From IMG/VR virus record IMGVR_UViG_3300035428_000130, positions 1 to 64,000 of that record: a DNA stretch of 64,000 bases. One strand, given 5' to 3'. The position numbers and the translations under genes are program-made. Positions 4,929 to 33,471 of this stretch are shown here, piece by piece (position 1 is the stretch's first letter; each line of letters begins with the position of its first letter). The notes below the pieces were generated by a model. It saw only the letters and a list, made by a program, of their open reading frames with translations, did not search any database and had not been told where the DNA came from. This DNA is from a virus (taxonomy: Duplodnaviria; Caudoviricetes).

Positions 4929-5508
4929 CTAAATTTCCTTTTCTCTAAATTGCTTCAGTTCTTCCAGCCACGTTGCCAATTGCAAATGCTCTTCGGCACA
5001 TTCACTGCATCCCAATTTTTTAGCAACATCATGACAATGCTCAATTGCTTCTGATAATGTCATTTTTGCCATAGGCTCACTCCTAAAAATGACCACCATA
5101 CTTGGAAATGGTGCAGAGTTCTTTCCATCTCCAAATTTCAACCGTCCACGAATGAAGCGGATTTCTACATTTGGCTTCTGGTATATGTAGTCGTGGAAGT
5201 AGCTGGTATCGGTTCTGGCTGGAATCAATAACACAATTGTTGTTCCAGGTTTCTTTGCTTCTTCCGAGCATTTCTTTACCCAGTCTTTTACCGCTCTGCC
5301 ATATGGCGGATTGCAGAAGACGGTCTGCCCCCCCCCAGCACTGTTCAAGTCCATTATCCTCTTCTGTAAAATACTTTTCACATTTATGGTTGAACTCGTC
5401 GGCACAGGGGTCAAGGGTAAAGTGAAACTCATCATCCAATTTGTCAAAGAAATTCTGTGGTGTCGCCCACTCCATTGATTTTGACGAAAACATTACTTCA
5501 AGATTGAT
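4929..5508 (-). pseudogene. Phage Dam-type N6-adenine MTase, frameshifted (OFF) at a G9 tract
   Basis: EWATPQ...LDPCA in one frame and NPPY...IPARTDT...GRLKF in another; G8 instead of G9 at 5328-5336 gives WGGQTVFCNPPY. Confidence 0.88.
5328..5336 (-). repeat. G9 tract (coding strand), OFF state of the Dam-type MTase
   Basis: C9 on the + strand at the frameshift point. Confidence 0.85.
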
Positions 5509-7204: not shown

Positions 7205-7996
7205 TTATGCGGTTTCCTCCAATCTTTGGGCTGCTACATCAGCCCAAGCCATACCGAAATATCGGCTCTTTTTATTATCGCAAATGCCGTTATCCATGCC
7301 TATGTAGTGACGGCCCTCCAGTTTGGCGGCAATTAAAGTTGCTCCACTGCCACAACAGTTGTCCAGCACTACCCCCCCCTGGTCGGTGTATGTACGAATG
7401 GCATAACGACATAGTTCAACGGGCTTTTCGGTAGAACTGATTGCTATTGACGGATGAGGCTTGGGGAATTCCCAAATAGAGGTTGGATGCTTTAAGTCGC
7501 CTGGGGTTTCCACAACTTTATAAGCTCCATAGACTCTATTGTTAGAAATATCTTCTGCCTGACTTCCTATGGCCTTGCCCTTACTATGGTTTGGAGCGCC
7601 TTTAACCATCTGAGGATGATAGATTGGCTGCTTCTTATAAAAAACCATGATATCTTCATGTTCACGCAAAGGCATACGATTGGCGTTAAGAAAGCCACTC
7701 TTTAACACCTTTCGCCAGATGATGTTATAACGATGGAGTTTTTCATTTGACAACATCATTTTTGCAGTAAACTTATCTTGACCAAAAAGGAGAATTGCGC
7801 CATTTGGTTTGATGATTCTTTCATATTGCTCCCAAAGCTTATCTGGAGGAATTACAACATCCCAAGGATTTTTTGTAACTCCGTAGGGCAAATCACAAAG
7901 AATCATGTCAATAGACGCATCTGGAATTAGGGCCATACCATCGAGGCAGTCGATATTATGAACGCTATCTATCTCAATTGTCTTTGGCACTAACAT
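7205..7996 (-). CDS. Beta-class N4-C/N6-A DNA methyltransferase (in frame, internal G8)
   Basis: DLPY catalytic motif, HEDI, TEKP, LDNCCGSG SAM motif. Confidence 0.9.
   Translation of the reverse strand: MLVPKTIEIDSVHNIDCLDGMALIPDASIDMILCDLPYGVTKNPWDVVIPPDKLWEQYERIIKPNGAILLFGQDKFTAKMMLSNEKLHRYNIIWRKVLKSGFLNANRMPLREHEDIMVFYKKQPIYHPQMVKGAPNHSKGKAIGSQAEDISNNRVYGAYKVVETPGDLKHPTSIWEFPKPHPSIAISSTEKPVELCRYAIRTYTDQGGVVLDNCCGSGATLIAAKLEGRHYIGMDNGICDNKKSRYFGMAWADVAAQRLEETA
7372..7379 (-). repeat. G8 tract in MTase (ON)
   Basis: CAG GGG GGG GTA = QGGV. Confidence 0.75.
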
Positions 7997-8166
7997 GACT
8001 CCAATCAAATATAGTCTTACATATCTCGCTGTCCGCAAACATACCAGCCAAGAGTGGCACAGCGCACTCATGCCCAAAGTCACACCACCATGCGCACTCT
8101 GGCTGACATTTAGTATTGCGGATTGGACAAAGCTTTTCTTTGTACTCGTCCATTATCCGCCTCCAA

Positions 8167-22846: not shown

Positions 22847-22910
22847 ATGAATTAATTAATTTCATATCATAGAGAAAGCACTTCTGCGCCAATATGAATT
22901 AATTAATTAC
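22847..22910. promoter_or_regulatory. Repeated AT-rich motif, copies 3 and 4 (22847-22863, 22894-22910)
   Basis: ATGAATTAATTAATTTC and ATGAATTAATTAATTAC immediately downstream of the -10 box. Confidence 0.7.
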
Positions 22911-22917
22911 TAATGAT

Positions 22918-22945
22918 AGTATAGCAGATTTTTGAGATTTGTCAA
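22918..22945 (-). promoter_or_regulatory. SigA-type promoter driving the replication operon
   Basis: TTGACA-16 bp-TATACT with extended TG. Confidence 0.75.
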
Positions 22946-22959
22946 GCGATTTTCAGAAA

Positions 22960-23152
22960 TTATTCCAACTTTTCAATCAAGCAAATCCCAATATTTGAGG
23001 CTGTAATAGTCGGGCAAATTTCTCCACTCTCTTGTACCCGACCACGCCTTGTTTTGCTTTGAGGGTAAGAAAGGTCAACAACCCCCCCCCACCCGGCATT
23101 CAATAAAGCCTTGCTTCGTGGCCTGTTTAATCAGCACTGTCTCGTCGTTCAT
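22960..23152 (-). pseudogene. Stand-alone C5-MTase target-recognition (TRD-like) module, OFF at G9
   Basis: G8 at 23082-23090 gives MNDETVLIKQATKQGFIECRVGGVVDLSYPQSKTRRGRVQESGEICPTITAS...; G9 stops early. Confidence 0.7.
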
Positions 23153-23907
23153 AAACTACTCCTGGCGGATTGCCATGGATTTGCGCTCGTAATGTCGGAC
23201 AGTCTTCCTTAATCACACAGCGCTTGCCAACCCGCCCTTGGGGATCAACAATACCTAATGGTGTTTCCGACTCTGCCTGTACTCTATACCATCCAGTCTT
23301 TGCACCCCCCCTCCAGCCTCAGCTTTCAGGGCGCGAGCAATGGTATTCCCATTATAAATACGGTTTGCATCTCCGTTATAACCGTTTATGTAACCAAGTT
23401 GTTCAAGCTCCAAATTCTGAGCTGGGGCAATAGTAGCTGTACTGTCTGGTGTAGCATTGTTCAAACGCTGCAAAGCTTTCTCAAATGCTCCAATTCCACT
23501 AAAAAACGAGCCTACCTCAATGTCTTCAAACAAATACGGCATAGCTTTATACAGCTCTTCCATAATATGCTGAAGCACATCGACAACAATAGAATTGCCA
23601 GCCTGTTTATATAGCTGAGAACCAGACCGATCCTTGCCGTCATACAGCTTTTCATTCATTCTGTCTCTGGCCCGTTCATAATCGAGGTCATCAAACCCCA
23701 TTAATCTCCAGCATTCTTTTTGTGTAAGCTTCCTCACACGATAGGCTGGCCGCTTTGTAATACTCATATCTTCCAATTGTGTATCATTCGCCTCCATAAC
23801 TAATTGTCTCCGTTTCTTTTCAAGATACTGTTCAATTGTAGTGCCCTTATAATAATTGGCATCAATACAATATGATACGGGGGGGTGGAGAAGATAACGT
23901 TATTCAT
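23127..23907 (-). CDS. C5-cytosine MTase subunit with motifs IX-X-I and flanking TRD-like modules; two frameshifting tracts (in-frame core 23255-23797)
   Basis: RKLTQKECWRLMGF, YKQAGNS, FFSGIGAFE; C8 at 23879-23885 adds SYCIDANYYKG, G8 at 23305-23311 adds GGGGAKTGWY...CPTLRAQ. Confidence 0.8.
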
Positions 23908-24778
23908 TTTTTACAATCACACCTGTCATTTGTTGATTTCCAAAACCCTTATAATCTCTCGCTAACAGCGTCATTGCTGTGTCGCTTAATCCATCGAACT
24001 GACTACCTTTTTTACTCAACTTCACTCCGCTCTGTAACCAAGTCCCAGGAGTGTCGGTCTGTTGATCCCCGTCCGCTGCTTCTAACTGTGTTAGTGATTG
24101 CGCGAAGCGGGGGGGGGCGATAAGCTGAGCTACCTTATCATCGCTCAGATAATAGCGCTCATCAACATTGGTTTCAAGCATATCTGGCAACGACTTTTTC
24201 AAAGGCAGAGGTTCTGGAAATTTGAATTGACCGTTATCTAAGTCTTTACGAATGATGACACAATAAACCCGCTCTCTGTTCTGAGGAATACCATAGTGTT
24301 TTGCATTGAGTACCTGCCAATAGACATTATAGCCGTAGTCCTCCAGCTCCTTCACGAATAAATCAAAGGTCTGGCGAAAACGTGCGCCTACAATATTTTT
24401 AACGTTCTCATAGATGGCAAAACGGGGCTTCTTTTCTCTGAGAAAACGCAACCATTCAGCAAGCAACGATGATCGGGTTTTGTCAATTTCTGTTGATCCG
24501 CATTGGGGACATTTATCACGTTCTGCATAGTGGGCTTCCAAGGGGTTATATGTATGGCCGCAAGTTCTACATGTCCATGCTACCCCCCCCTGCTTGCCCG
24601 CTATCGAGAAGTCCTGACAAGGGCTTCCGCCAAACATTACATTGAAATCAGGCACTTTCTTTTCGTCAGCCTTAGTAATATCTCCAATGTTAAGTGACGG
24701 ATTTACACCATGAACCGCACAATAGCTTTCTGCGGCATACTTGTCAAACTCGCAGAACAAGACAGTTTTGAAATCTAT
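23900..24778 (-). CDS. C5-cytosine MTase catalytic subunit (motifs II-VIII + TRD), probable ATA start
   Basis: CEFDKYA, GGSPCQDFS, ENV, PQNRERVY; no motif I; G8 at 24583-24590 and C9 at 24109-24117. Confidence 0.88.
   Translation of the reverse strand: MDFKTVLFCEFDKYAAESYCAVHGVNPSLNIGDITKADEKKVPDFNVMFGGSPCQDFSIAGKQGGVAWTCRTCGHTYNPLEAHYAERDKCPQCGSTEIDKTRSSLLAEWLRFLREKKPRFAIYENVKNIVGARFRQTFDLFVKELEDYGYNVYWQVLNAKHYGIPQNRERVYCVIIRKDLDNGQFKFPEPLPLKKSLPDMLETNVDERYYLSDDKVAQLIAPPRFAQSLTQLEAADGDQQTDTPGTWLQSGVKLSKKGSQFDGLSDTAMTLLARDYKGFGNQQMTGVIVKNE
24109..24117 (-). repeat. C9 tract selecting alternative MTase C-termini
   Basis: G9 on the + strand; all three frames translated by hand. Confidence 0.75.
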
Positions 24779-24794
24779 AAAAATTCCTCCTTAT

Positions 24795-25535
24795 CTAAAT
24801 GGGTACACAAGTTGGCATTGGAGAAAGCTTGTGAAGATTGCGCAGATGTAATGTTAGAATCTTTGCATCAACATCTTCACTGCCAGACGTTCCATACATA
24901 ATATAGTCATCAAGCTGGGTATAGGTAAAACCTAAGTTGTCCTCATCGGTTTTTCCACACAGCCCGTCAGATGGAACTTTGTCTACCAAATCGGTAGGAA
25001 GTCCAAGCTCGTGGCCGATTTGAATAACTTCATGCACCATCAAATTGGCAAGGGGACTAAAATCGCCAGCACTGTCACCATATTTGGTAGAATAACCTAC
25101 ATAATCCTCAGAGCAGTTACAAGTGTTGGCAACACGTCCGCCATTAGGCAAAGATTGAGAAATCGCATAGAGCATTGCCATACGGATACGAGCAGGCAAG
25201 TTCACCTTCGTTTGCTCCTTGACATCCATATAGACATCAATTTGGTCGATCATGCGCTGTACTTCATGGGAGATGTTGGTGTAAATGTATCGGATTCCTA
25301 AGTGCTGAATCAACCGTTTACTATCATCCAAATCTGATTGCTCACCGTTTGGCATCATTACCCCTACTACACGATTTTTGCCAAGCGCTTCTACGCAAAG
25401 TGTAGCAACAATACTGGAATCCTTACCACCGGAAATGCCGACTACAGCATCGCAAGTAGGGCCGTTCTCCTTAAAATAATCTCGTATCCAATTGACAATA
25501 TAGTCTTTTGTCCGTTTAGGGTTTCCCAACATCAA
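24795..25535 (-). CDS. nadE: NH3-dependent NAD+ synthetase
   Basis: GISGGKDSS, NLPARIRM, SE..VGYSTKYGD, KVPSDGL, TDEDNLG. Confidence 0.93.
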   Translation of the reverse strand: MMLGNPKRTKDYIVNWIRDYFKENGPTCDAVVGISGGKDSSIVATLCVEALGKNRVVGVMMPNGEQSDLDDSKRLIQHLGIRYIYTNISHEVQRMIDQIDVYMDVKEQTKVNLPARIRMAMLYAISQSLPNGGRVANTCNCSEDYVGYSTKYGDSAGDFSPLANLMVHEVIQIGHELGLPTDLVDKVPSDGLCGKTDEDNLGFTYTQLDDYIMYGTSGSEDVDAKILTLHLRNLHKLSPMPTCVPI

Positions 25536-27046
25536 AAATCACCCCCATGAAGATTCTGACGAACTTCATCCAAAGTATAGACTTTTAAGAGTTTACCATT
25601 TTTGAAGACGGTTTTAAGCTCGTTGTTATCCTGTGCTTCTTCCCAAGTCAGCCCATCTTCATAGGTATACTCATCACCATCCTTGGACACTCGACAACAA
25701 CCCCGTTGAGATTTCTTGAAATGCCCACTATCAGTCTTAGGATTTTTGAAAATCATAATGGATTTGCCGTCTATATCCTTAGCATAGGTGGCTTTAACAG
25801 CAATTCCAAATGTATCACGGGTAAAAGGAGCATACTGAACAGACTGCACCAAGCCAGAATTGTCGAGTGGATTAGCCTCCCAATGCTCCAAACATTGCAT
25901 GGAGAAGGAACCCACGCCAAGAGAGACGTTATTAATGGCAAACCCATTGTTCATCAGGATCTGATAGATTCGTTCGCACCGCTGCGGTGTAATGCTATCG
26001 CCATATAGCGCCTTGACATGAGGATTCAGAACCTTAAACCCCCTACTATTTACGGTGCCGCCGAAGATATCCCACAGCTTAAAAACAGTCTGTGTTACAA
26101 TCTGAACAGGATCTCCGCTATCGCCACGAACAGCAAGGCAGCCATCGTGCGCCAGCACATCTTCTTTAATCTCTGGCAAAATGACATTGACCAAATTCCA
26201 ATAGTCATAGCTATCGCTTACCATGGAAAAATTCTGGTGAGGATAAATCTCTTTCAGCAAACGCCGAATGTGTGTCACCTCATCGCCATCAATAGCGAAG
26301 TTGGAACACATAACACTATGTTCGGTAGACAAAGCGCCGTAGGCTACCTGGTCATACTCCACACGGCAAGCGTAATTGTGTTCCAACCAAAGAATAGCGG
26401 GGACTGTAGCCGTATTAAGAAAGCTGAGACAAAACGCAGCGGAGCTTTTAGTTGCGCTTTCTACACTCTCTTGCCCACGCATAGAAAAATCTCCTAAGAG
26501 CTTGGCTCGCACTACGCTGTCATCACAAGTCAGCTCTGCATACTTATTGACGATCTGCCGATAACGATAGCCAACTTCTGCCGAAATCTGGGTATGCCAC
26601 ATAGTACAAGACAGCATAGTCTCGATGGAATTGACCAGCCACACAAATCGAGGGTTGGTGTTGGATATCTCAATTTGAGGCACCTTGATATTGGTGCGGG
26701 CACCCTCTGGAACAGCACGAATCTCCAAAGGCAAGTAGCCCAATCTATGAAGAGCTGCCACACGGCCTCTGCCTACACCGTTTGTATCAATAGTGTTTTT
26801 AAGAATCCGCTCATACTCTTCAAGCACCACGTCCAATGAACGGTTAAAGAAGTTGGTATTGAACGCTTCAATCAAGTATTCCTGAATGAACGCCTGAAGA
26901 CCAAACATCGTAATCTTATCGACATCTTCCAGACGGGTCATACGTGGCGTATAATAAGACACCATTTTTGTTAGTGTCGCCGGATACTGGCCTGCATGTG
27001 CTGTTTTGTAGAAATCCAGACACAGCAAAGGATTGTATGAAATCAT
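25532..27046 (-). CDS. Nampt-family nicotinamide/nicotinate phosphoribosyltransferase (Namat-like)
   Basis: LDFYK, DFSMRG, STEHS, VSDSYD, RGDSG, YGDSI, RDTFGIAVKAT, KKSQRG. Confidence 0.9.
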   Translation of the reverse strand: MISYNPLLCLDFYKTAHAGQYPATLTKMVSYYTPRMTRLEDVDKITMFGLQAFIQEYLIEAFNTNFFNRSLDVVLEEYERILKNTIDTNGVGRGRVAALHRLGYLPLEIRAVPEGARTNIKVPQIEISNTNPRFVWLVNSIETMLSCTMWHTQISAEVGYRYRQIVNKYAELTCDDSVVRAKLLGDFSMRGQESVESATKSSAAFCLSFLNTATVPAILWLEHNYACRVEYDQVAYGALSTEHSVMCSNFAIDGDEVTHIRRLLKEIYPHQNFSMVSDSYDYWNLVNVILPEIKEDVLAHDGCLAVRGDSGDPVQIVTQTVFKLWDIFGGTVNSRGFKVLNPHVKALYGDSITPQRCERIYQILMNNGFAINNVSLGVGSFSMQCLEHWEANPLDNSGLVQSVQYAPFTRDTFGIAVKATYAKDIDGKSIMIFKNPKTDSGHFKKSQRGCCRVSKDGDEYTYEDGLTWEEAQDNNELKTVFKNGKLLKVYTLDEVRQNLHGGDF

Positions 27047-27071
27047 TGTCCGATTCCCTCTTTTCATTGAA

Positions 27072-27857
27072 TTATTTACAAATGGTAATCTTATCATGAC
27101 TGATACGCAAGATACTGTCTGTAGTAAACACATGAGAAATAAGGCCGTCAGTCAAAACAGTCCCGTCTAAGATTGTATTCTCACAATGAGTAACATACAG
27201 TAGAATCTTTTCAGCGCCAGCCGCTTTCAACGCTTTGGCCGTATATGTAAAGGTGCCGCCGCGAGAACAGATATCGTCCACGATCAGGATGTTTCTACCA
27301 GCAACCTTCTCGGGAGTTGTCAGTTCCGTTCGCTCAATTTTACCAGTACGCCAATCACGGTGCTTAATACAGAAGACATATTCCATAGGAATCATCTCAG
27401 AATACCGCTTGGCAGCTCCCTCGTCTGGATAACACAACAAAGAATTCATTTCCTGGCTTACCATAAACTGAATCGGCTGGTTGATGTAGTATTTCACATC
27501 CATGACCTTTACGTTGTTAATGAGCGCCGTCGCCACATTTGAGTGTGGATCAAGCACACGGACAAGTCTGAAATTGAGTGAATTGATGAAATCAGCAAAC
27601 CATTTAAGTGTGAAAACTTCGTCGCTGTTTTTCACCCGATCCATTCTGGCGTTTGGAATATACGGCATATTCAAATACAAATCGTCAATGCCCATAGCTC
27701 TCAAGTGTTTTACCAAATACAGGAGGTGCATACATTCGGCATCGTTGTCGTACTTCCAACTAATGTTACAAGTACCCGCCTCCAAGCCAAAACGAAATGA
27801 CGATGTACCATCAGGAAAATTGGTGAAATTGACGTTTCTTCCATTGACAAGAATCAT
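27072..27857 (-). CDS. prs: Ribose-phosphate pyrophosphokinase homolog (Prs/Adps-like)
   Basis: FPDG, PYIPNARMDR, DPHS, PDEGA, VDDICSRGGTF. Confidence 0.88.
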   Translation of the reverse strand: MILVNGRNVNFTNFPDGTSSFRFGLEAGTCNISWKYDNDAECMHLLYLVKHLRAMGIDDLYLNMPYIPNARMDRVKNSDEVFTLKWFADFINSLNFRLVRVLDPHSNVATALINNVKVMDVKYYINQPIQFMVSQEMNSLLCYPDEGAAKRYSEMIPMEYVFCIKHRDWRTGKIERTELTTPEKVAGRNILIVDDICSRGGTFTYTAKALKAAGAEKILLYVTHCENTILDGTVLTDGLISHVFTTDSILRISHDKITICK

Positions 27858-27858
27858 C

Positions 27859-28404
27859 TTAGCCCTCCCAATTCTCTACATTGATTTGACACATCTTCAT
27901 AACCGCCAGAGCATTGGCATGACTCTCAGGAGTTACACCAGCACAACAAGCTGCATCAACGGTAATCTTAGCTTCTGGCAGAAAAGCCCTGAGAAGCAAT
28001 GCGTTGGAAATCACGCAGATGTCGGTACAAAGGCCGACCAGAACGATCTCGTCAATATGCCATGCCGTTTTGCTTTTGATGTGTAGGTATTCACCCAGCT
28101 CGGCAGAGCCAAACGTCTTCTTTTCAAATGTAGAAGACCACGCTCCATTGTCCAGAAGAGCATTGAAAAGGACATCGGGAACACACCACCCAGAAGTTTT
28201 CTTAATGCAATGCTCAACGGGAAGCAGTTTTCCCTCTTGCGTTTTCAGGTAGTCCTTATCATGGGTATCCATGGTCAAAACGATTTCGCCATAAGATTCC
28301 TTGGCCTTTTCGATAACCTTAGGCAAAATTGCCTGTGCTTCTTTGGTTCCAAGTGCGCCGTCGATGAAATCATTTTGCATATCAACGATAACTAAAACTT
28401 TCAT
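27859..28404 (-). CDS. pncA: Nicotinamidase (isochorismatase family)
   Basis: VDMQNDF, DTH, HC, K, GLCTDICV (D-K-C triad). Confidence 0.85.
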   Translation of the reverse strand: MKVLVIVDMQNDFIDGALGTKEAQAILPKVIEKAKESYGEIVLTMDTHDKDYLKTQEGKLLPVEHCIKKTSGWCVPDVLFNALLDNGAWSSTFEKKTFGSAELGEYLHIKSKTAWHIDEIVLVGLCTDICVISNALLLRAFLPEAKITVDAACCAGVTPESHANALAVMKMCQINVENWEG

Positions 28405-29153
28405 TTTGCAGCAACCCCTTTTATTTTTTCGCTTGCAAATCGTTTTTCCAGCTCAAAAATCCCTTTTGGCTGTCCCTTATAGTAGCCTTTGAATGGCCGC
28501 TGGATTTGATGCTGAAGACATTTCAACTTCTCCCAATATGATGGAAGATGTTGATATATGTTTCTTAGTTCTGTCAGGTTTTTGTTACAACAGCACCAGC
28601 AAGAAACACGACTAAGTACAGTATATAAGTCGATCTGACCAGCGGGAGTATCTTCATACCAATGCCAGCCTCGATCATAACAGTAATTCAAACAATCTTG
28701 CTCTGTCATTCCCCAAGTAACAAGCGGAAACGTCTTTCCCTCAGACTTTGCCTTTTCAAACCGCTTTGGTTCGTCTGCGGCGATCCCTACATAATCCACA
28801 ACCATATCACCCAAGGATTGTTTGAATTTCTTTATGGCTTTGAGTTTGTCAGTTGTTCCCCAACGACATAGACCGCCACACCAACCATAACCATAGTGTG
28901 TTCCTTTTTGCTTGCTTTGCACCTTGCGTTCAAGCATTGAATACAAAAACGGTTCCTGAGGTTTCAGTTCGACATAAGCAATTCCGTTTTGCTTTAGCCA
29001 AGGCTTGATCTTATCTCTGATACGATAGATTGCCTCAAATTCCATTTCTGTGTCATAAAACAGAACAATATCCAGCGGCCATTTTTCCTCTACCAGCCGC
29101 AATAACATGGCGAGAGAGTCCTTGCCAAAACTTACACTTGCGATGTGCTTCAT
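28401..29153 (-). CDS. PAPS-reductase-family (PP-loop, Fe-S) protein
   Basis: SFGKDS, WCGGLC, GIAADE, RVSCWCC. Confidence 0.8.
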   Translation of the reverse strand: MKHIASVSFGKDSLAMLLRLVEEKWPLDIVLFYDTEMEFEAIYRIRDKIKPWLKQNGIAYVELKPQEPFLYSMLERKVQSKQKGTHYGYGWCGGLCRWGTTDKLKAIKKFKQSLGDMVVDYVGIAADEPKRFEKAKSEGKTFPLVTWGMTEQDCLNYCYDRGWHWYEDTPAGQIDLYTVLSRVSCWCCCNKNLTELRNIYQHLPSYWEKLKCLQHQIQRPFKGYYKGQPKGIFELEKRFASEKIKGVAAK

Positions 29154-29283
29154 ACTGACCACAACCGAATCCGGCTGAGGTCAACTGCCTAATCCTCCCA
29201 TGCTCGCTTGCGCTCACGCTGTAACAGGCAGCTTTACCATGCACTTATCAATCTTACATGAACCTGGTTTACCAGGATTGGTA

Positions 29284-29559
29284 TTAGCTCCTTCCGTTGT
29301 TATTATTTGTCTGTGAACTCTTGAAGTAACGTCCGATTGTTGCCAATGTTGCGCAGGCCAGAGGAATAAAATCTGGTGTGAAACGTGTCGTGTCAAACAT
29401 CAGGTTCATGCCAGCGGCAATTGTGTCGCCCACACACATTTTCAGTAGTACCCCCCCCACCCACGCAAGGCCGAAGGTGATAACTGGACTAAACACCAGC
29501 AGTCCAATTACTCCCACGATAATTGTGAGAACGCCCACAGTTTCTAACTTATCTTTCAA
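29284..29559 (-). CDS. Small membrane protein with an in-frame G8 tract (29451-29458)
   Basis: AAGGAGG RBS, TTG start, hydrophobic segments. Confidence 0.6.
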   Translation of the reverse strand: MKDKLETVGVLTIIVGVIGLLVFSPVITFGLAWVGGVLLKMCVGDTIAAGMNLMFDTTRFTPDFIPLACATLATIGRYFKSSQTNNNNGRS

Positions 29560-29622
29560 TGCACAGTCCTCCTTATGATTTTGTAGGGATCTATTATAGC
29601 TACCCGACTTCAACTTCATCTG

Positions 29623-30149
29623 CTAACTGCATTTTGAAATTTCTTCAAACACAATTTGCTTTGGAAGCATTTTATGACAGACATAAACACTGCTAAATGG
29701 TGGATTAAGCGATGGCTTTTGTTCTGCATAGTCTTTGAAATATGATATACGTTTGTTCATATACATAATTTCAAATTCATTCTCCTTGAACATGTCAAAC
29801 CGTGCCTTGCTTTCAAAAAGCCCTACCACACCGACCAACATAGCAAATGGAATATTAAGATCGAATAGCTTTTGTAGCACAGCTCCTTTTAAGGAGTAGG
29901 GCGGATTGCTAATTATGTAGTCACACTTCGGTGGTTCATGCGTAAAGAAATCCTGCCCGCTGGAAATATGTGTAGCAATCACTGTATATCCAAGTTCCTG
30001 AAATCGTTTTACAAACAAGCTATCCTCTGTATCAAAAGGGCACCAAATTACTGCGGGGGGGGTGCAAGATACTTCTCAATAGGAGCAATTGCATAGGCTG
30101 GTGTGTAAAACTCATCATTTCCACTGCCAGCAACTTTATCCATTTTCAT
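29623..30149 (-). pseudogene. Small adenine MTase, frameshifted (OFF) at C8
   Basis: NDEFYTP...APPPQ* upstream, WCPFD...DFF...ISNPPYS downstream; C9 or C6 at 30055-30062 restores the frame. Confidence 0.85.
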
Positions 30150-30161
30150 CAAATACCACCT

Positions 30162-30776
30162 TTACAACCATTTGATAGATGGAACACCAGTATATCCGAG
30201 TTCCCATACGAACCAAGCGAAACACATTGTACTGGCCCAAGGTTTACCTTTTTCATCAACTTCCATTCCGTTTCTCAATGGGTTTACACGTTTAGAAAAC
30301 ACGTATACTGTTTTGGGTGGATATTTCGCAAAAAATTCCTTGCGTTGAATCCCCTCAAGAAACTGAATTTTTGCAAACATAATTACCTTATCAGTAGATA
30401 TCAGCAATGCTTTCTCCACAAACTCTTTTGCCAAAGAAAACGGTGGATTAGTTATTACATTGTTGAATTTCTCAGGATATAGCGTGGTAAGGAAATCCAC
30501 CCCCCCCACAATGTTGCACCCAAACCGATCTTCACGTTGTACCAGGTCGGTAGACACAATCTTATTATCTGGATAATAGTCTCGAACAATTTTGCTGATA
30601 TGTCCTTCTCCAGCAGCAGGTTCTAAAATTGAACCGTTGAAGTGTTCCTGATCTAAAATGGCCCGTGTTGCATCAAACGGGGTGGCGTAAAAATCATTTT
30701 CAGCTCGTAATCGAGTCAGAGACATACCAGCAAGACTTGTACCACCTAAGTATTTTCTGTTATCTATATTTATCAC
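30162..30776 (-). CDS. Small adenine MTase (in frame, G8 at 30500-30507)
   Basis: DFYATP, LEPAAGEG, DFL, TNPPF, AWFVW. Confidence 0.85.
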   Translation of the reverse strand: MINIDNRKYLGGTSLAGMSLTRLRAENDFYATPFDATRAILDQEHFNGSILEPAAGEGHISKIVRDYYPDNKIVSTDLVQREDRFGCNIVGGVDFLTTLYPEKFNNVITNPPFSLAKEFVEKALLISTDKVIMFAKIQFLEGIQRKEFFAKYPPKTVYVFSKRVNPLRNGMEVDEKGKPWASTMCFAWFVWELGYTGVPSIKWL

Positions 30777-30787
30777 TCCTTGAATTG

Positions 30788-31747
30788 TTATTCTGTTGTA
30801 ACACCAATGTAGTCAAGTACAGTTTTCATCCCTAAACCATGTTCTTCCCACGGCCTCATACAGTAACTCCACAGCTTTGGATGAGTGATTTTCAAGCGCT
30901 GAAAACGGTTTGGAGCCTTTTCCAAATGAGCACCAAAGGCACAAAACACACAGCCTGTACGCTGTTCTCCTGTAGTGCTCCACCCCCCCCCGTCAGTTCT
31001 GACTATATCGCCATAAACAGACGCATAGGGGATGTTGTATGTATAGAGGTATTCAAGAACATCGGCTGCAGTCCAGAAAGACATAGGCTGAGAACTGGGA
31101 GCTTTCTTTGAGAATGCGTTGCAGCCTTGGCGGAGCCATGTTGATCGTCTTGATCTGCTTTCGTCGGCCATAGTTGCGATAATCGGCACACGTCCAGATT
31201 TTTTCTGATACTTTTTCATAGGCCGTTTCTTCATCACATCACAACAGCGAGACGATACCTTAAACGGAGCATTCAAAAGATAGCACCATTTTTCACAATT
31301 AAACTCGGATGGCGTACCATTACTACGAGTGATTTCACCATGAAGCTCTTTCCAACGAAATGTTCCAGGCTTATGTCCATACTCCACCGTGTCCACAACT
31401 CGTTTTGATACCACAGGATATCCATAAGTTTCAATAACCTTACGGAAATTCATTTCAGGTTTTACGACAACAACATTTTCCTGGCTTAAAGCAAACTTCC
31501 GAACCTCTGGAAATTCCAGGCCAGTATCAGCAAATACAGCAGGGACATCAGGATAAAGCCTGCGTACAATATCCAAAAGTACGGTTGAGTCTTTGCCACC
31601 AGAAAAGGCTACATATACCTGGCCGTTATAATACTCGTACCATTCAATAATGCGAGTCGTGGTTACTTGAATTTTGTGCTGAAGATCCCACGACTGCATT
31701 ATTGCTAAATCTTCTTTGCTATAAATAGTTAATACCTTCCCCTTCAT
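30788..31747 (-). CDS. PAPS-reductase-family protein (in frame, G9 at 30983-30991)
   Basis: FSGGKDSTVLL, DTGLEFPE, RCCDVMKK, RTGCVFC. Confidence 0.85.
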   Translation of the reverse strand: MKGKVLTIYSKEDLAIMQSWDLQHKIQVTTTRIIEWYEYYNGQVYVAFSGGKDSTVLLDIVRRLYPDVPAVFADTGLEFPEVRKFALSQENVVVVKPEMNFRKVIETYGYPVVSKRVVDTVEYGHKPGTFRWKELHGEITRSNGTPSEFNCEKWCYLLNAPFKVSSRCCDVMKKRPMKKYQKKSGRVPIIATMADESRSRRSTWLRQGCNAFSKKAPSSQPMSFWTAADVLEYLYTYNIPYASVYGDIVRTDGGGWSTTGEQRTGCVFCAFGAHLEKAPNRFQRLKITHPKLWSYCMRPWEEHGLGMKTVLDYIGVTTE

Positions 31748-32665
31748 TTAGTGGGCTAACAAATCAGCCCTATGCAGCAACATCACATCCGAAAATGTAT
31801 TGTCACCAACCAGCCGCCTAAATTTATCCGTCGCTCTTTTTGAACGCGGATCTCTCTCCAATTCAAATGGACGCATATGCCACTGAATCACATTTGCGAT
31901 ATAGAGACGGTTCAGTGCAGGGTTACTATAAAAGAGACTGTCGTAAGCAGAGACATGATGATGTTCGTAATAGTGAGCAATCTCAGTTGTCTCACCCTTG
32001 CTATTTACAAATGATTTGGTGAAAGGCTTTCCAATATCATGGAGTAAAGCCGCCTCTTGTAACTCAGGGGAGGTAGAGGCAAGCTGCTTATAGGTGGCTA
32101 AACAATGTTGCCCGATAGAATATGTATGATGTGGATTATCATGAGGAATTCGATTAAGGCCAGTTCCATCTTTATTGAACAACTCATTTACATCAAAACG
32201 AAATGCCTCTTGCGGATAAACAAGCTCAATACGATCCCAGCCCTCATAGTAATAAGGAATCCAAATGCTCTTATACATACGGGCCATAACTTCATAAGGA
32301 ACTTCTCTATCACGATGCCTATTGCGGTCAATACACATTTCAAAAGGAGTTGCCATAAAAACACAAACCTTCTGGCAATCAAACTTATTGAGTGTTTGCA
32401 AAAATTCATGCCGCCGCTTATAGTTGATGTTCGTAGCGTCATAAATGGTGTTATGACCCAAACGAATGTCTTCTTTGACACGAGTGTGAAGCACATCAAA
32501 AACTTTGGCATTTTCATCTTGGCGATTCACATCGCCCAGAATTTCCACCCTAATTGCATCACTGGAATGCACATTAGCGTGAAATTTCTCTGTCAGTTCC
32601 TTGGATTTGTCTGTCTTACCCCCCCCAGGCAGACCTACCATCATAAAGAAAATTGGCTTATCCAT
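31748..32665 (-). CDS. P-loop polynucleotide-kinase-like + HD domain protein
   Basis: GLPGGGKT Walker A (G8 at 32619-32626), DATN, HH...H, LHDIGKP. Confidence 0.85.
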   Translation of the reverse strand: MDKPIFFMMVGLPGGGKTDKSKELTEKFHANVHSSDAIRVEILGDVNRQDENAKVFDVLHTRVKEDIRLGHNTIYDATNINYKRRHEFLQTLNKFDCQKVCVFMATPFEMCIDRNRHRDREVPYEVMARMYKSIWIPYYYEGWDRIELVYPQEAFRFDVNELFNKDGTGLNRIPHDNPHHTYSIGQHCLATYKQLASTSPELQEAALLHDIGKPFTKSFVNSKGETTEIAHYYEHHHVSAYDSLFYSNPALNRLYIANVIQWHMRPFELERDPRSKRATDKFRRLVGDNTFSDVMLLHRADLLAH

Positions 32666-33471
32666 TAAACAGCCCCTCCAATTTCTTTCTGAAAACTAAA
32701 TTTCAGCAAATTCATAAGCGCTCCATTTAGAACAGTCTCAACCTCTCTATTTACTGAAACAACATGAGAGGCCATATACTCAGCTTTGGTTTTTTTCATA
32801 CGCTCAACCGTTCGATCTGCAATCTCCATGGCTGCGTCCAGTGAAATAGCGCCTGCCTTAACCCTCTTCAAATATTCTCGTTCTTGAGAAATCAGGCAGT
32901 CAGCATAAGGCACACCATTTAGCCAGCGACGCATAAACTCATCAAGTCTCAAAATGTGATGAAGCTGTTTTGGATCGTAGCCAAATTTCTCAATTTTCGC
33001 CGCCGTTGCAGGATAAGGGTGGCATAACGCTTTTCTTTTCTCTAATGCTGTTCCACACATACAATTGAGCGAGGCAAAATCATTGTATCTACCAATCAGC
33101 TCCGCAGCATCAAGAACAGGCTGATACAAAGCTTGATATTGAGGATTGAGAATGCGGTATTTAGTAAAAAGAATTTCAACAAAATTGATATTCTGCTTAC
33201 GAAAACAATCAAACATCAAGCGGATATCTTTAACGTCAACATGCTCTTCGTTTTCCATGATATGTGTATAACTTGTAGGCTTTTTGTTCAAAACAAACTC
33301 TTCAAAGCAAGGAAGCACAATCAACTTGGAATCCACATCACTTCCCTCATAATCAAGGTTATAGTTTTGAGAGCCTTGTAGAAAAATTCCTACCCATTGC
33401 GGATGCTTTTCTTTTACAGCGTCAAGGTGCTCTTGAAGTCGCTGCATCACTTTTTCTGACAGTTCAGTCAC
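32665..33471 (-). CDS. Pol-beta-superfamily nucleotidyltransferase
   Basis: GSQNYNL...SDVD, KQLHHILR. Confidence 0.8.
   Translation of the reverse strand: MTELSEKVMQRLQEHLDAVKEKHPQWVGIFLQGSQNYNLDYEGSDVDSKLIVLPCFEEFVLNKKPTSYTHIMENEEHVDVKDIRLMFDCFRKQNINFVEILFTKYRILNPQYQALYQPVLDAAELIGRYNDFASLNCMCGTALEKRKALCHPYPATAAKIEKFGYDPKQLHHILRLDEFMRRWLNGVPYADCLISQEREYLKRVKAGAISLDAAMEIADRTVERMKKTKAEYMASHVVSVNREVETVLNGALMNLLKFSFQKEIGGAV

What the first reader, a model, noticed from the sequence alone, without database searches (positions are those of the whole stretch)
23900..24117. One poly-C tract selects between target-recognition modules encoded in overlapping frames (three-state switch)
Seen (hand translation): with C9 the MTase reads through a linker to ...DTAMTLLARDYKGFGNQQMTGVI (stop at 23900). 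With C10 or C7 it reads ...PLRAITNTVRSSGRGSTDRHSWDLV (stop at 24012). With C8 it stops at 24091 with no TRD. Both alternative tails resemble the T-L/V-centred TRD segments of multispecific phage C5 MTases (my recognition). Inference: tract length changes specificity rather than only ON/OFF, and the same DNA serves as TRD in one frame and linker in another.
Basis: partly seen in the sequence, partly recalled or inferred. Interest (0 to 1): 0.8.

Follow-up and report, generated by a model that had tools for sequence, protein, structure and literature searches.

The report
Poly-C tract selects phage methylase recognition module
In a large mouse-gut phage, a run of nine C's inside a cytosine DNA methyltransferase gene decides by its length which of two DNA-recognition modules, or neither, is joined to the enzyme core, so the phage can probably change which DNA sequences it methylates by gaining or losing one base.

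Summary
The tract at 24109-24117 is C9 on the coding (minus) strand.

The main new results come from relatives and homologues:
- The tract sits at the same position in 29 of 30 related phages. Its length runs from C7 to C10, and it differs between near-identical genomes in seven sub-lineages.
- The DNA behind the tract is under clear purifying selection in the +1 frame (TRD1: 10 invariant residues in 36 aligned columns). In frame 0 it is only kept open, as an S/T/P/E/Q-rich linker leading to the conserved TRD2.
- A TRD1 profile finds 130 proteins. All 10 that were tested are C5 methyltransferases, and they carry the module in frame, some directly before motif IX.
- TRD2 also occurs in the variable region of ordinary phage methylases.
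- More distant relatives carry both modules in tandem in one frame with no tract. The window's clade has turned "both" into "one or the other".

The gene is one half of a split, circularly permuted multi-TRD enzyme.

Three things are not shown. No methylation specificity was measured. No length change at this tract was seen in the window's own lineage, where it is C9 or interrupted. Slippage during transcription or translation could add to the DNA-level changes.

I found no prior description. The closest precedent is the NgoAV hsdS poly-G tract.

The parts
24109..24117 (-). Poly-C tract (C9), coding A-P-P-R. It is the selector between the three C-termini.
   Evidence: It is conserved in position in 29 of 30 relatives, with lengths C7-C10 (A1).
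24118..24778 (-). Catalytic core of subunit A: motifs II-VIII (FCEFDKYA, PCQ, ENV, QNRER), with a CxxC..CxxC zinc-ribbon insert after motif IV. It has no motif I. The start is ATA 24778, or TTG 24760.
   Evidence: Pfam PF00145 at E 3e-50. M.HhaI residues 40-92 and 98-230 align to a relative's ORF.
24583..24590 (-). G8 tract coding Q-G-G just after motif IV. It is in frame here and acts as an on/off switch for the whole A subunit.
   Evidence: G7-G9 among relatives, absent from the distant clade (A6). One run of the same sample (X3) has one G fewer.
24015..24108 (-). TRD1 module in the +1 frame (LRAITNTVRSSGRGSTDRHSWDLV plus a short tail). The same bases read in frame 0 are the linker RFAQSLTQLEAADGDQQTDTPGTWLQS.
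   Evidence: A4 and A5. Profile search and Pfam check.
24012..24014 (-). TAA stop that ends the TRD1 frame.
   Evidence: GAGTAA is conserved in most relatives (A1).
24091..24093 (-). TAA stop reached when the tract is one C shorter (the state with no TRD).
   Evidence: The equivalent stop is used in L016, where the ORF ends ..IAPPAA*.
23903..24040 (-). TRD2 module in frame 0 (GVKLSKKGSQFDGLSDTAMTLLARDYKGFGNQQMTGVIVKNE). The stop is TAA 23902-23900.
   Evidence: Conserved in both clades (A2). Homologues in phage methylases. In the complex model it contacts the strand before motif IX of subunit B.
23879..23907 (-). Leader of subunit B: ATG 23907-23905 overlaps the end of ORF-A, followed by a C7 tract (23879-23885). 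C7 is out of frame here. C8 would add TRD3 (VSYCIDANYYKGTTIEQYLEKKRRQLV).
   Evidence: The 217-aa in-frame alleles P0001-P0007. L082 has C8. L019 codes PP as CCACCA (A1).
23255..23797 (-). Subunit B from the internal ATG: motif IX (RKLTQKECWRLMGF), motif X (QAGNSIVV), then motif I (FFSGIGAFEKAL), a linker and an HhaI-like TRD cut short by the G7 tract at 23305-23311.
   Evidence: Pfam profile positions 236-323. M.HhaI 270-322 aligns, and HhaI 227-269 aligns out of order. G7, G8 and G9 alleles occur at 99% identity or more.
22960..23152 (-). Small TRD-only ORF (..VDLSYPQSKTRRGRVQESGEICPTITASN..), broken here by the G9 tract at 23082-23090 and intact (63 aa) with G8.
   Evidence: L082 gene call and alignment.

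Best explanation
The tract is a contingency locus: a hypermutable homopolymer kept by selection. It sits at the junction between the catalytic core (motifs II-VIII) and the recognition part of subunit A. Subunit A belongs to a split, circularly permuted, multi-TRD phage C5 DNA methyltransferase.

Polymerase slippage during phage DNA replication changes the tract length, and the length sets the C-terminus:
- 3n (C9): the ribosome reads the TRD1 DNA out of frame as a flexible linker and reaches TRD2.
- 3n+1 (C10 or C7): TRD1 is read in its own frame and the protein ends.
- 3n+2 (C8): the protein ends within a few codons (two to five in the cases read) with no TRD of its own.

Subunit A pairs with subunit B, which carries motifs IX-X-I and has its own tract-controlled TRDs. 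Together they form the active enzyme. The phage population therefore holds sub-populations that methylate different sequences. This is most plausibly a hedge between hosts whose restriction enzymes are blocked by a given methylation and hosts whose methyl-dependent nucleases are triggered by it.

Shown here: the anatomy, the conservation and polymorphism of the tract, selection on both frames, the TRD identity of both modules, and the natural occurrence of all three states.

Inferred: slippage as the cause, different target sequences for TRD1 and TRD2, and the ecological purpose.
For: Frames and stops are as described.

Tract conservation and polymorphism (A1):
- The tract is present at the same site in 29 of 30 relatives.
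- States: 17 C9, 8 C8, C10 in L015 and L021, C7 in L022.
- L014 has its own C7 in a different flanking context; hand translation puts it in the TRD2 frame.
- Near-identical sets differ in tract length: L016/L017 vs L030; L015 vs L029; L001/L031 vs L021; L009-L011 vs L045 vs L022; L002/L006/L033 vs L020; L007 vs L023; L004 vs L018.

Natural ORFs exist for each state:
- The window and L001 read through to TRD2.
- L016 ends ..IAPPAA*.
- L022 fuses the core to TRD1 in a 256-aa ORF.
- 33 called protein clusters carry this fusion.

Selection on the two frames:
- The TRD1 frame has 10 invariant columns of 36 (A4).
- The same DNA in frame 0 has 2 invariant columns but is open in all 11 sequences (A5).

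TRD identity:
- The TRD1 profile gives 130 hits at E<=1e-3. All 10 tested match PF00145.
- P0347 and P0338 have the TRD1 module directly before motif IX.
- P0268 and P0319 have it in tandem with other TRDs in one frame.
- TRD2 homologues occur in annotated phage methylases.
- The distant clade has TRD1-like and TRD2 in one frame, with no tract here and none at motif IV (A2; A6).

Subunits A and B belong together:
- Natural single-chain fusions exist: P0046 and P0075, P0015 and P0008.
- M.HhaI aligns across the two ORFs in permuted order.
- Complex prediction scored 0.89 against a best control of 0.00. That mark was reached by 58 of 80 solved complexes and 2 of 110 mismatched pairs. The runs agree in at least 95% of contacts, and the partner pLDDT is at least 84. 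My own alignments were used, so the counts hold only roughly. The pass may reflect likeness to solved C5 methyltransferases.

Tracts are the only indel sites in near-identical genomes: five tracts across four runs over 9.8 kb, and three tracts in L082.
Against: - No methylation data exist, and the target sequences of TRD1 and TRD2 are unknown.
- In the window's own lineage this tract was C9 in all four runs laid and in P0015 and P0155. In a 99%-identical variant it is interrupted (CCCCCCACC, P0154/L082). Switching at this particular tract is therefore documented only among more distant relatives.
- The TRD1 state is rare among assemblies: 2 clean cases in 30.
- Only assembled contigs could be laid, not raw reads, so heterogeneity within a population was not measured.
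- ORF-A in this lineage has ATA where relatives have the ATG start (A2), so its expression level is uncertain.
Confidence: 0.62

Rival explanations
1. The alternative products come mainly from expression-level slippage. RNA polymerase stuttering on the C9/G9 run, or a -1 ribosomal shift on C CCC CCC, would let one genotype make a fixed mixture of TRD2, TRD1 and TRD-less protein. Under this reading the tract is a ratio-setting device and not a heritable switch.
For: TRD1 is under strong selection even though most assemblies are in the C9 state. This would be explained if C9 genomes already express some TRD1. C CCC CCC formally fits the X XXY YYZ heptamer, and a -1 shift gives the TRD1 frame (read). 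That long homopolymers cause transcriptional slippage is established knowledge.
Against: Heritable DNA length differences are seen directly in seven sub-lineages and at sister tracts in 99%-identical genomes. The 101 nt of RNA from the tract downstream show no fold beyond shuffled controls (z -0.86). An interrupted allele locked in the TRD2 frame is common (P0154, a cluster of 123 member sequences). The two mechanisms are not exclusive.
Confidence: 0.15
2. Only on/off matters. One of the two tails is not a working TRD in this split context. For example, TRD1 without a following link to motif IX could be inactive. The tract would then simply switch TRD2 on and off.
For: TRD2 is the majority state. 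The interrupted allele is locked to TRD2. Only the TRD2 form was modelled, and it docks against the strand before motif IX. TRD1-state assemblies are few.
Against: TRD1 keeps 10 invariant residues, with synonymous codon changes, across a clade whose cores are 62-80% identical. This is not expected for a dead frame. The same module precedes motif IX in ordinary enzymes. Core-TRD1 fusions are called in 33 protein clusters.
Confidence: 0.12
3. The pattern is an artefact or decay. Homopolymer length errors in assemblies, or a methylase gene decaying into pseudogene fragments, would give the look of a switch.
For: Homopolymers are a known weak point of sequencing and assembly. Two runs of one sample (X1 and X3) disagree at the tracts 24583-24590 and 32619-32626.
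Against: The tract and the fixed one-base offset between TRD1 and TRD2 are conserved across dozens of diverged phages from many datasets. Indels between the modules are multiples of three. Both frames are selected. G/C runs are about 19-fold over chance and concentrated in DNA-modification genes.
Confidence: 0.04

Closest known systems
NgoAV Type I system of Neisseria gonorrhoeae (poly-G tract in hsdS1)
   Same: A homopolymer G/C tract inside the specificity-determining coding region changes which recognition domains end up in the enzyme. The outcomes are truncated, fused or inactive forms, so tract length alters specificity and not only on/off (PMC9577141, read, citing Adamczyk-Poplawska 2011).
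   Different: NgoAV is a bacterial, N6-adenine, Type I system with a separate S subunit, and the choice there is one TRD versus two. Here the enzyme is phage-encoded and C5-cytosine. The tract chooses between two different TRDs written in different reading frames, and the DNA of the unused one serves as the linker.
Multispecific C5 methyltransferases of Bacillus phages (SPR, phi3T, rho11s, SPbeta)
   Same: The enzymes are phage-encoded. Short modular TRDs centred on a T-L/V motif are strung along the variable region, and each is thought to confer one target (established knowledge, from memory). Relatives here carry four to five tandem TRDs (L022 ORF-B; P0277).
   Different: Those enzymes are single chains with motifs in the order I-X, and all their TRDs are expressed together. 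Here the enzyme is split and permuted (II-VIII / TRDs-IX-X-I-TRDs), and the TRDs are gated by slippage tracts. No sequence match to phage records in the phage collection was found for TRD1.
Split M.AquI and circularly permuted M.BssHII-type C5 methyltransferases
   Same: The enzyme is divided within the variable region into two polypeptides that must assemble, and the motif order is permuted so that IX-X precede I (established knowledge, from memory). M.HhaI aligns here in exactly that permuted, two-ORF way.
   Different: Motif I alone is moved behind motif X on the second subunit. TRDs hang from three attachment points. The split itself is variable: fused alleles P0015 and P0008 and single-chain relatives P0046 and P0075. 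No tracts are described for the known enzymes.
Phase-variable Type III mod and Type IIG methyltransferases (phasevarions; Cj0031)
   Same: Changes in simple-sequence-repeat length within the coding region switch methylation stochastically (PMC4889913, listed).
   Different: Those are bacterial on/off switches that regulate host genes. This one is in a lytic-type phage genome and has three outcomes, two of them with different recognition modules.
Poly-G tracts in Campylobacter phage receptor-binding genes
   Same: A phage uses hypermutable G/C homopolymers to create phenotypic sub-populations (from memory; not retrieved).
   Different: Those tracts act on tail-fibre or receptor-binding genes, not on DNA-modification enzymes, and they do not select between alternative domains.

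Membership tests
C5 cytosine DNA methyltransferase (PF00145) | Catalytic motif IV (P-C-Q), motif VI (E-N-V) and motif VIII (Q-x-R-x-R) in the large domain | tested here: met
   GGSPCQDF, IYENVKN and PQNRERVY are present in ORF-A. Pfam E 3e-50. M.HhaI E 1e-29 for a relative.
C5 cytosine DNA methyltransferase (PF00145) | Motif I (F-x-G-x-G AdoMet loop) and motifs IX-X on the same polypeptide, in the order I to X | tested here: not met
   ORF-A starts at the position of HhaI residue ~40 and has no motif I. Motifs IX, X and then I (FFSGIG) lie on ORF-B. The parts are all present, but split and permuted.
Multispecific phage C5 methyltransferase (SPR/phi3T type) | Several independent TRD modules in tandem in one chain between motifs VIII and IX | tested here: not met
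   In the window, TRD1 and TRD2 are in different frames and each is followed by a stop. Tandem in-frame arrays do occur in relatives (L022 ORF-B; P0268, P0277 and P0319).
Multispecific phage C5 methyltransferase (SPR/phi3T type) | Each TRD confers its own target sequence | not testable with these tools
   This needs methylation mapping of defined alleles.
SSR-driven phase-variable methyltransferase (contingency locus) | A homopolymer inside the reading frame, maintained as a homopolymer against synonymous drift | tested here: met
   Uninterrupted C7-C10 in 29 of 30 relatives, while neighbouring third codon positions vary freely (A1). The distant clade lacks the tract.
SSR-driven phase-variable methyltransferase (contingency locus) | Tract-length polymorphism between otherwise near-identical genomes or within a population | tested here: inconclusive
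   Met for this tract in seven sub-lineages of relatives. Met for sister tracts in the window's own lineage. This tract itself was C9 or interrupted in every near-identical genome seen. No raw reads were available.
SSR-driven phase-variable methyltransferase (contingency locus) | Length states change methylation | not testable with these tools
   No methylation-aware reads or expression data were available.
Programmed -1 ribosomal frameshift site | Slippery heptamer plus a downstream stimulatory RNA structure | tested here: not met
   The heptamer C CCC CCC is present. The 101 nt from the tract downstream fold no better than shuffled sequence (z -0.86; 34 of 200 shuffles fold at least as well).
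Split C5 methyltransferase (M.AquI-like two-subunit enzyme) | Two polypeptides that together supply all ten motifs and associate | tested here: met
   Motifs II-VIII are on A and IX-X-I on B. Natural fusions exist. The complex model scored 0.89 against a best control of 0.00; 58 of 80 solved complexes and 2 of 110 mismatched pairs reach that mark. The pass may come from likeness to solved methylases. Association is modelled, not measured.

The most novel reading that the evidence does not exclude
This tract is one dial of a combinatorial methylome generator. Five slippage tracts lie in one split, permuted, multi-TRD C5 methyltransferase, and further tracts lie in the phage's Dam-like and N4/N6 methylase genes. 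Together they let a single phage genotype spin off dozens of methylation-specificity combinations. This includes a frame-encoded either/or choice between two TRDs, a coding trick not described before, in which the unused TRD's DNA doubles as the linker. On this reading a whole clade of large gut phages evolved the device from a tandem-TRD ancestor to hedge between classical and methyl-dependent restriction.
Probability: 0.45. Interest if true: 0.88.

Novelty: new variant of a known kind. Interest (0 to 1): 0.78.

Why it matters
Repeat-driven switching of methylation is known from bacteria, almost always as on/off. Multispecific methylases are known from a few Bacillus phages. This locus combines the two in a phage and adds a mechanism I did not find described: a single homopolymer chooses between two recognition modules written in different reading frames of adjacent DNA.

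If confirmed, three things would follow:
- Phages, and not only their hosts, would be shown to run contingency loci on their anti-restriction equipment.
- There would be a natural explanation for how one phage lineage copes with hosts that carry opposing restriction logics.
- The compact, modular TRDs (about 25-40 residues) that work when tethered by one end would be useful for engineering methyltransferase specificity.

The family is large: 319 related viral contigs and thousands of protein clusters. The behaviour would therefore be common in gut viromes, and it would also explain why these genes are routinely mis-annotated as fragments.

Tried and rejected
- The Python box was lost. All counting and frame work was done with the translation and alignment tools and by hand.
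- blastn of the locus against the phage collection found nothing.
- tblastn of the 34-aa TRD1 peptide against the phage collection gave only chance hits.
- Pfam found nothing for the isolated TRD1 and TRD2 peptides.
- The word-indexed protein search with the TRD1 region found only close relatives. The profile search without an index was needed to reach ordinary methylases.
- All sequencing runs were available only as assembled contigs. The tract-length distribution within a population, and any RNA-level slippage, could not be measured. The focal tract showed no difference in the four runs laid.
- A stimulatory RNA structure for ribosomal frameshifting was looked for and not found.
- Five literature searches found no description of phage methylase TRD switching by homopolymers. 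Papers outside the held library were not searched.
- I considered that TRD1 plus TRD2 might be two halves of one TRD needing a second frameshift. I rejected this because no conserved slippery site lies between them, the TRD1 frame ends at a conserved stop, and TRD1 alone precedes motif IX in ordinary enzymes.
- No specificity could be assigned to either module.
Full report
**What is in the sequence**

The window is part of a 100,965-bp IMG/VR virus record, estimated 75% complete. Near-identical DNA occurs in mouse-gut metagenomes from 14 studies. All genes around the finding lie on the minus strand.

The tract at 24109-24117 is C9 on the coding strand.
- C9 reads through to ..TLLARDYKGFGNQQMTGVIVKNE, with the stop at 23902-23900.
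- C10 or C7 gives ..LRAITNTVRSSGRGSTDRHSWDLVTERSEVE, with the stop at 24014-24012.
- C8 gives ..PPASRNH, with the stop at 24093-24091.

G/C runs of eight or more are about 19 times more frequent than in shuffled sequence: 15 matches against 0.79 expected, reached by 0 of 100 shuffles. Most sit in DNA-modification genes.

**What the gene is**

ORF-A (24778/24760 to 23900) matches PF00145 at E 3e-50. A relative's ORF-A aligns to M.HhaI only from residue 40 onward, that is motifs II to VIII. It therefore lacks motif I. It also carries a zinc-ribbon insert after motif IV.

The next ORF (23797 to 23255) carries motifs IX and X, which align to HhaI 270-322. These are followed by motif I (FFSGIGAFEKAL), a linker, and an HhaI-like TRD that aligns out of order to HhaI 227-269. 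The enzyme is thus split and circularly permuted.

Three lines of evidence show that the two ORFs belong together:
- Natural single-chain relatives exist (P0046 and P0075).
- Near-identical alleles exist in which A runs into B (P0015 and P0008).
- A complex model scored 0.89 against a best control of 0.00. That mark was reached by 58 of 80 solved complexes and 2 of 110 mismatched pairs. The runs agree in at least 95% of contacts, and the partner pLDDT is at least 84. My own alignments were used, so the counts hold only roughly.

In the model, the motif I strand of B lies against the motif IV strand of A. The end of TRD2 lies against the strand before motif IX. Because solved C5 methylases resemble this pair, the pass shows likeness, not binding.

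**The tract in relatives**

A scan of viral contigs found 319 relatives, on contigs of 50-160 kb. In an alignment of 30 members of the window's clade (A1), the poly-C tract is at the same position in 29. One has a deletion.

The lengths are C9 in 17, C8 in 8, C10 in 2 and C7 in 1, plus L014 with its own C7 in a different flanking context. Seven sets of near-identical sequences differ in tract length:
- L016/L017 vs L030
- L015 vs L029
- L001/L031 vs L021
- L009-L011 vs L045 vs L022
- L002/L006/L033 vs L020
- L007 vs L023
- L004 vs L018

The length has therefore changed many times independently.

All three products exist as natural ORFs:
- read-through to TRD2 (window and L001)
- ..IAPPAA* (L016)
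- core fused to TRD1 (L022, 256 aa; 33 called protein clusters)

A more distant clade (55-60% identical cores) has no tract here and none at motif IV. It reads a TRD1-like segment and TRD2 in a single frame (A2; A6). The homopolymers and the one-base offset between the two modules are therefore derived features of the window's clade.

**Selection on the two frames**

I translated the roughly 100 nt behind the tract in 11 relatives.
- The +1 frame has ten invariant residues of 36 (consensus ISNTVRxGGRGSTDRHTWDLL; A4).
- Hand translation of A1 shows synonymous changes, such as AGA versus CGA/CGC/CGT for the invariant Arg.
- The same bases in frame 0 have two invariant columns. They are rich in S, T, P, E, Q, A and D, and are open in all 11 (A5).
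- Indels between TRD1 and TRD2 are multiples of three (A1).

So TRD1 is maintained as protein although it is out of frame in most assemblies. Frame 0 is maintained only as an open passage to TRD2.

**Are the tails real TRDs?**

A profile of TRD1 was searched against 1.84 billion representative proteins. It gave 130 hits at E<=1e-3, and all ten tested are PF00145 proteins. The sequences show:
- P0347 (327 aa, normal motif order) has SKTVRSGGRGSYDRHEWD a few residues before motif IX.
- P0338 has NTVRAGGRGSTDKKHRWDLV before motif IX, behind an HhaI-like TRD.
- P0268 is a non-permuted relative that has the same zinc ribbon. It carries TRD1 in tandem with further TRDs.
- P0319 has TRD1-like and TRD2-like modules in one frame.

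TRD2's core matches annotated phage methylases. In Pelagibacter phage HTVC134P gp5 it lies after motif VIII, ahead of further TRD-like modules and motif IX.

**State of the window's own lineage**

Four runs were laid on 22900-32700. The only indels relative to the window were at five tracts:
- 23305-23311
- 24583-24590, where two runs of one sample disagree
- 30500-30507
- 30983-30991
- 32619-32626

The focal tract was C9 in all four runs.

Proteins at 99% identity or more show all three states of the 23305-23311 tract: G7 (217 aa), G8 (260 aa) and G9 (207 aa).

L082 is a 99%-identical contig. Its focal tract is interrupted (CCCCCCACC, locked in the TRD2 frame), and its three downstream tracts are each one step different, all in frame. 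The window's allele, by contrast, has all three out of frame.

As assembled, the window therefore encodes a minimal enzyme: TRD2 on A, plus a TRD-less B from the internal ATG 23797. The out-of-frame leader ORF stops two bases before that ATG, and a Met at that position is kept in several relatives (A3). This suggests reinitiation.

**Mechanism and rivals**

The best reading is DNA-level slippage at a selected contingency tract that picks TRD2, TRD1 or none. Transcriptional slippage or a -1 ribosomal shift could add to this. The heptamer C CCC CCC is present, but the downstream RNA folds no better than shuffles (z -0.86).

A pure on/off role is hard to square with the selection on TRD1. Artefact or decay is hard to square with conservation of the tract, of the frame offset and of both modules across dozens of diverged phages.

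What the two modules recognise, and whether the three states differ in methylation, cannot be determined here.

**Comparison with what is known**

- **NgoAV.** The nearest precedent for a homopolymer that changes specificity is the NgoAV hsdS1 poly-G tract, with truncated, fused and inactive forms (PMC9577141).
- **Bacillus phage enzymes.** The nearest precedent for modular phage TRDs is the SPR/phi3T group.
- **M.AquI and M.BssHII.** These are the nearest precedents for the split and for the permutation.

Literature searches found no description of a phage methylase whose TRDs are chosen by a homopolymer, or of two TRDs set in different frames behind one tract. I class it as a new variant of a known kind.

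My tests agree with both.

Noticed in passing
window 24776-24778: The codon 7 nt downstream of the AAGGAGG ribosome-binding site of ORF-A is ATA here and in the 99%-identical L082. Relatives L002, L004 and L009 have ATG at the aligned position. The next in-frame start is TTG at 24760. Translation of subunit A may be weak or start late in this lineage.
   Followed up: partly
window 23907-23912: An A6 run overlaps the ORF-A stop and the ORF-B start. Near-identical proteins P0015 and P0008 read ..GVIVK-MNNVIFSTPPVSYC.., which is A fused to B. This fits one A fewer, together with C8 at 23879-23885. The split itself may be variable.
   Followed up: partly
window 22960-23152: A 63-aa ORF consisting only of a TRD-like module (..VDLSYPQSKTRRGRV..CPTITASN..) is intact in L082 (G8). 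In the window it is broken by the G9 tract at 23082-23090. Its ATG overlaps the end of the reading frame reached when the G7 tract (23305-23311) is G8. How a free-standing TRD would work is unexplained.
   Followed up: partly
window 23797-23907: The out-of-frame 35-aa leader ORF (ATG 23907) ends at TAG 23802-23800, two bases before ATG 23797 of the TRD-less IX-X-I subunit. A Met right after ..RRQLV is kept in several relatives. This looks like termination-reinitiation coupling that keeps subunit B expressed when its N-terminal TRD is switched off.
   Followed up: no
window 4929-5493, 7205-8083, 29623-30776, 30788-31747, 31748-32665: Further G/C tracts sit in other genes. One splits a Dam-family methylase as assembled (5328-5336). 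Three lie in frame: in an N6/N4 methylase (7372-7379), in another methylase-like gene (30500-30507) and in a PAPS-reductase-like gene (30983-30991). One lies just upstream of a truncated Dam-like ORF (30055-30062). One lies in the P-loop of a kinase/HD protein (32619-32626). Three of these differ by one base in other runs.
   Followed up: partly
window 24490-24580: A CxxC..CxxC zinc ribbon is inserted between motifs IV and VI of the methylase core. It is invariant across both clades and is also present in the non-permuted relative P0268. Its role is unknown.
   Followed up: no
window 25853-27644: A contig from an RNA-library run (X15) joins 25852 to 27645. It skips 1792 nt that cover most of the NAMPT-like gene, so a variant of this phage lacks that gene.
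   Followed up: no
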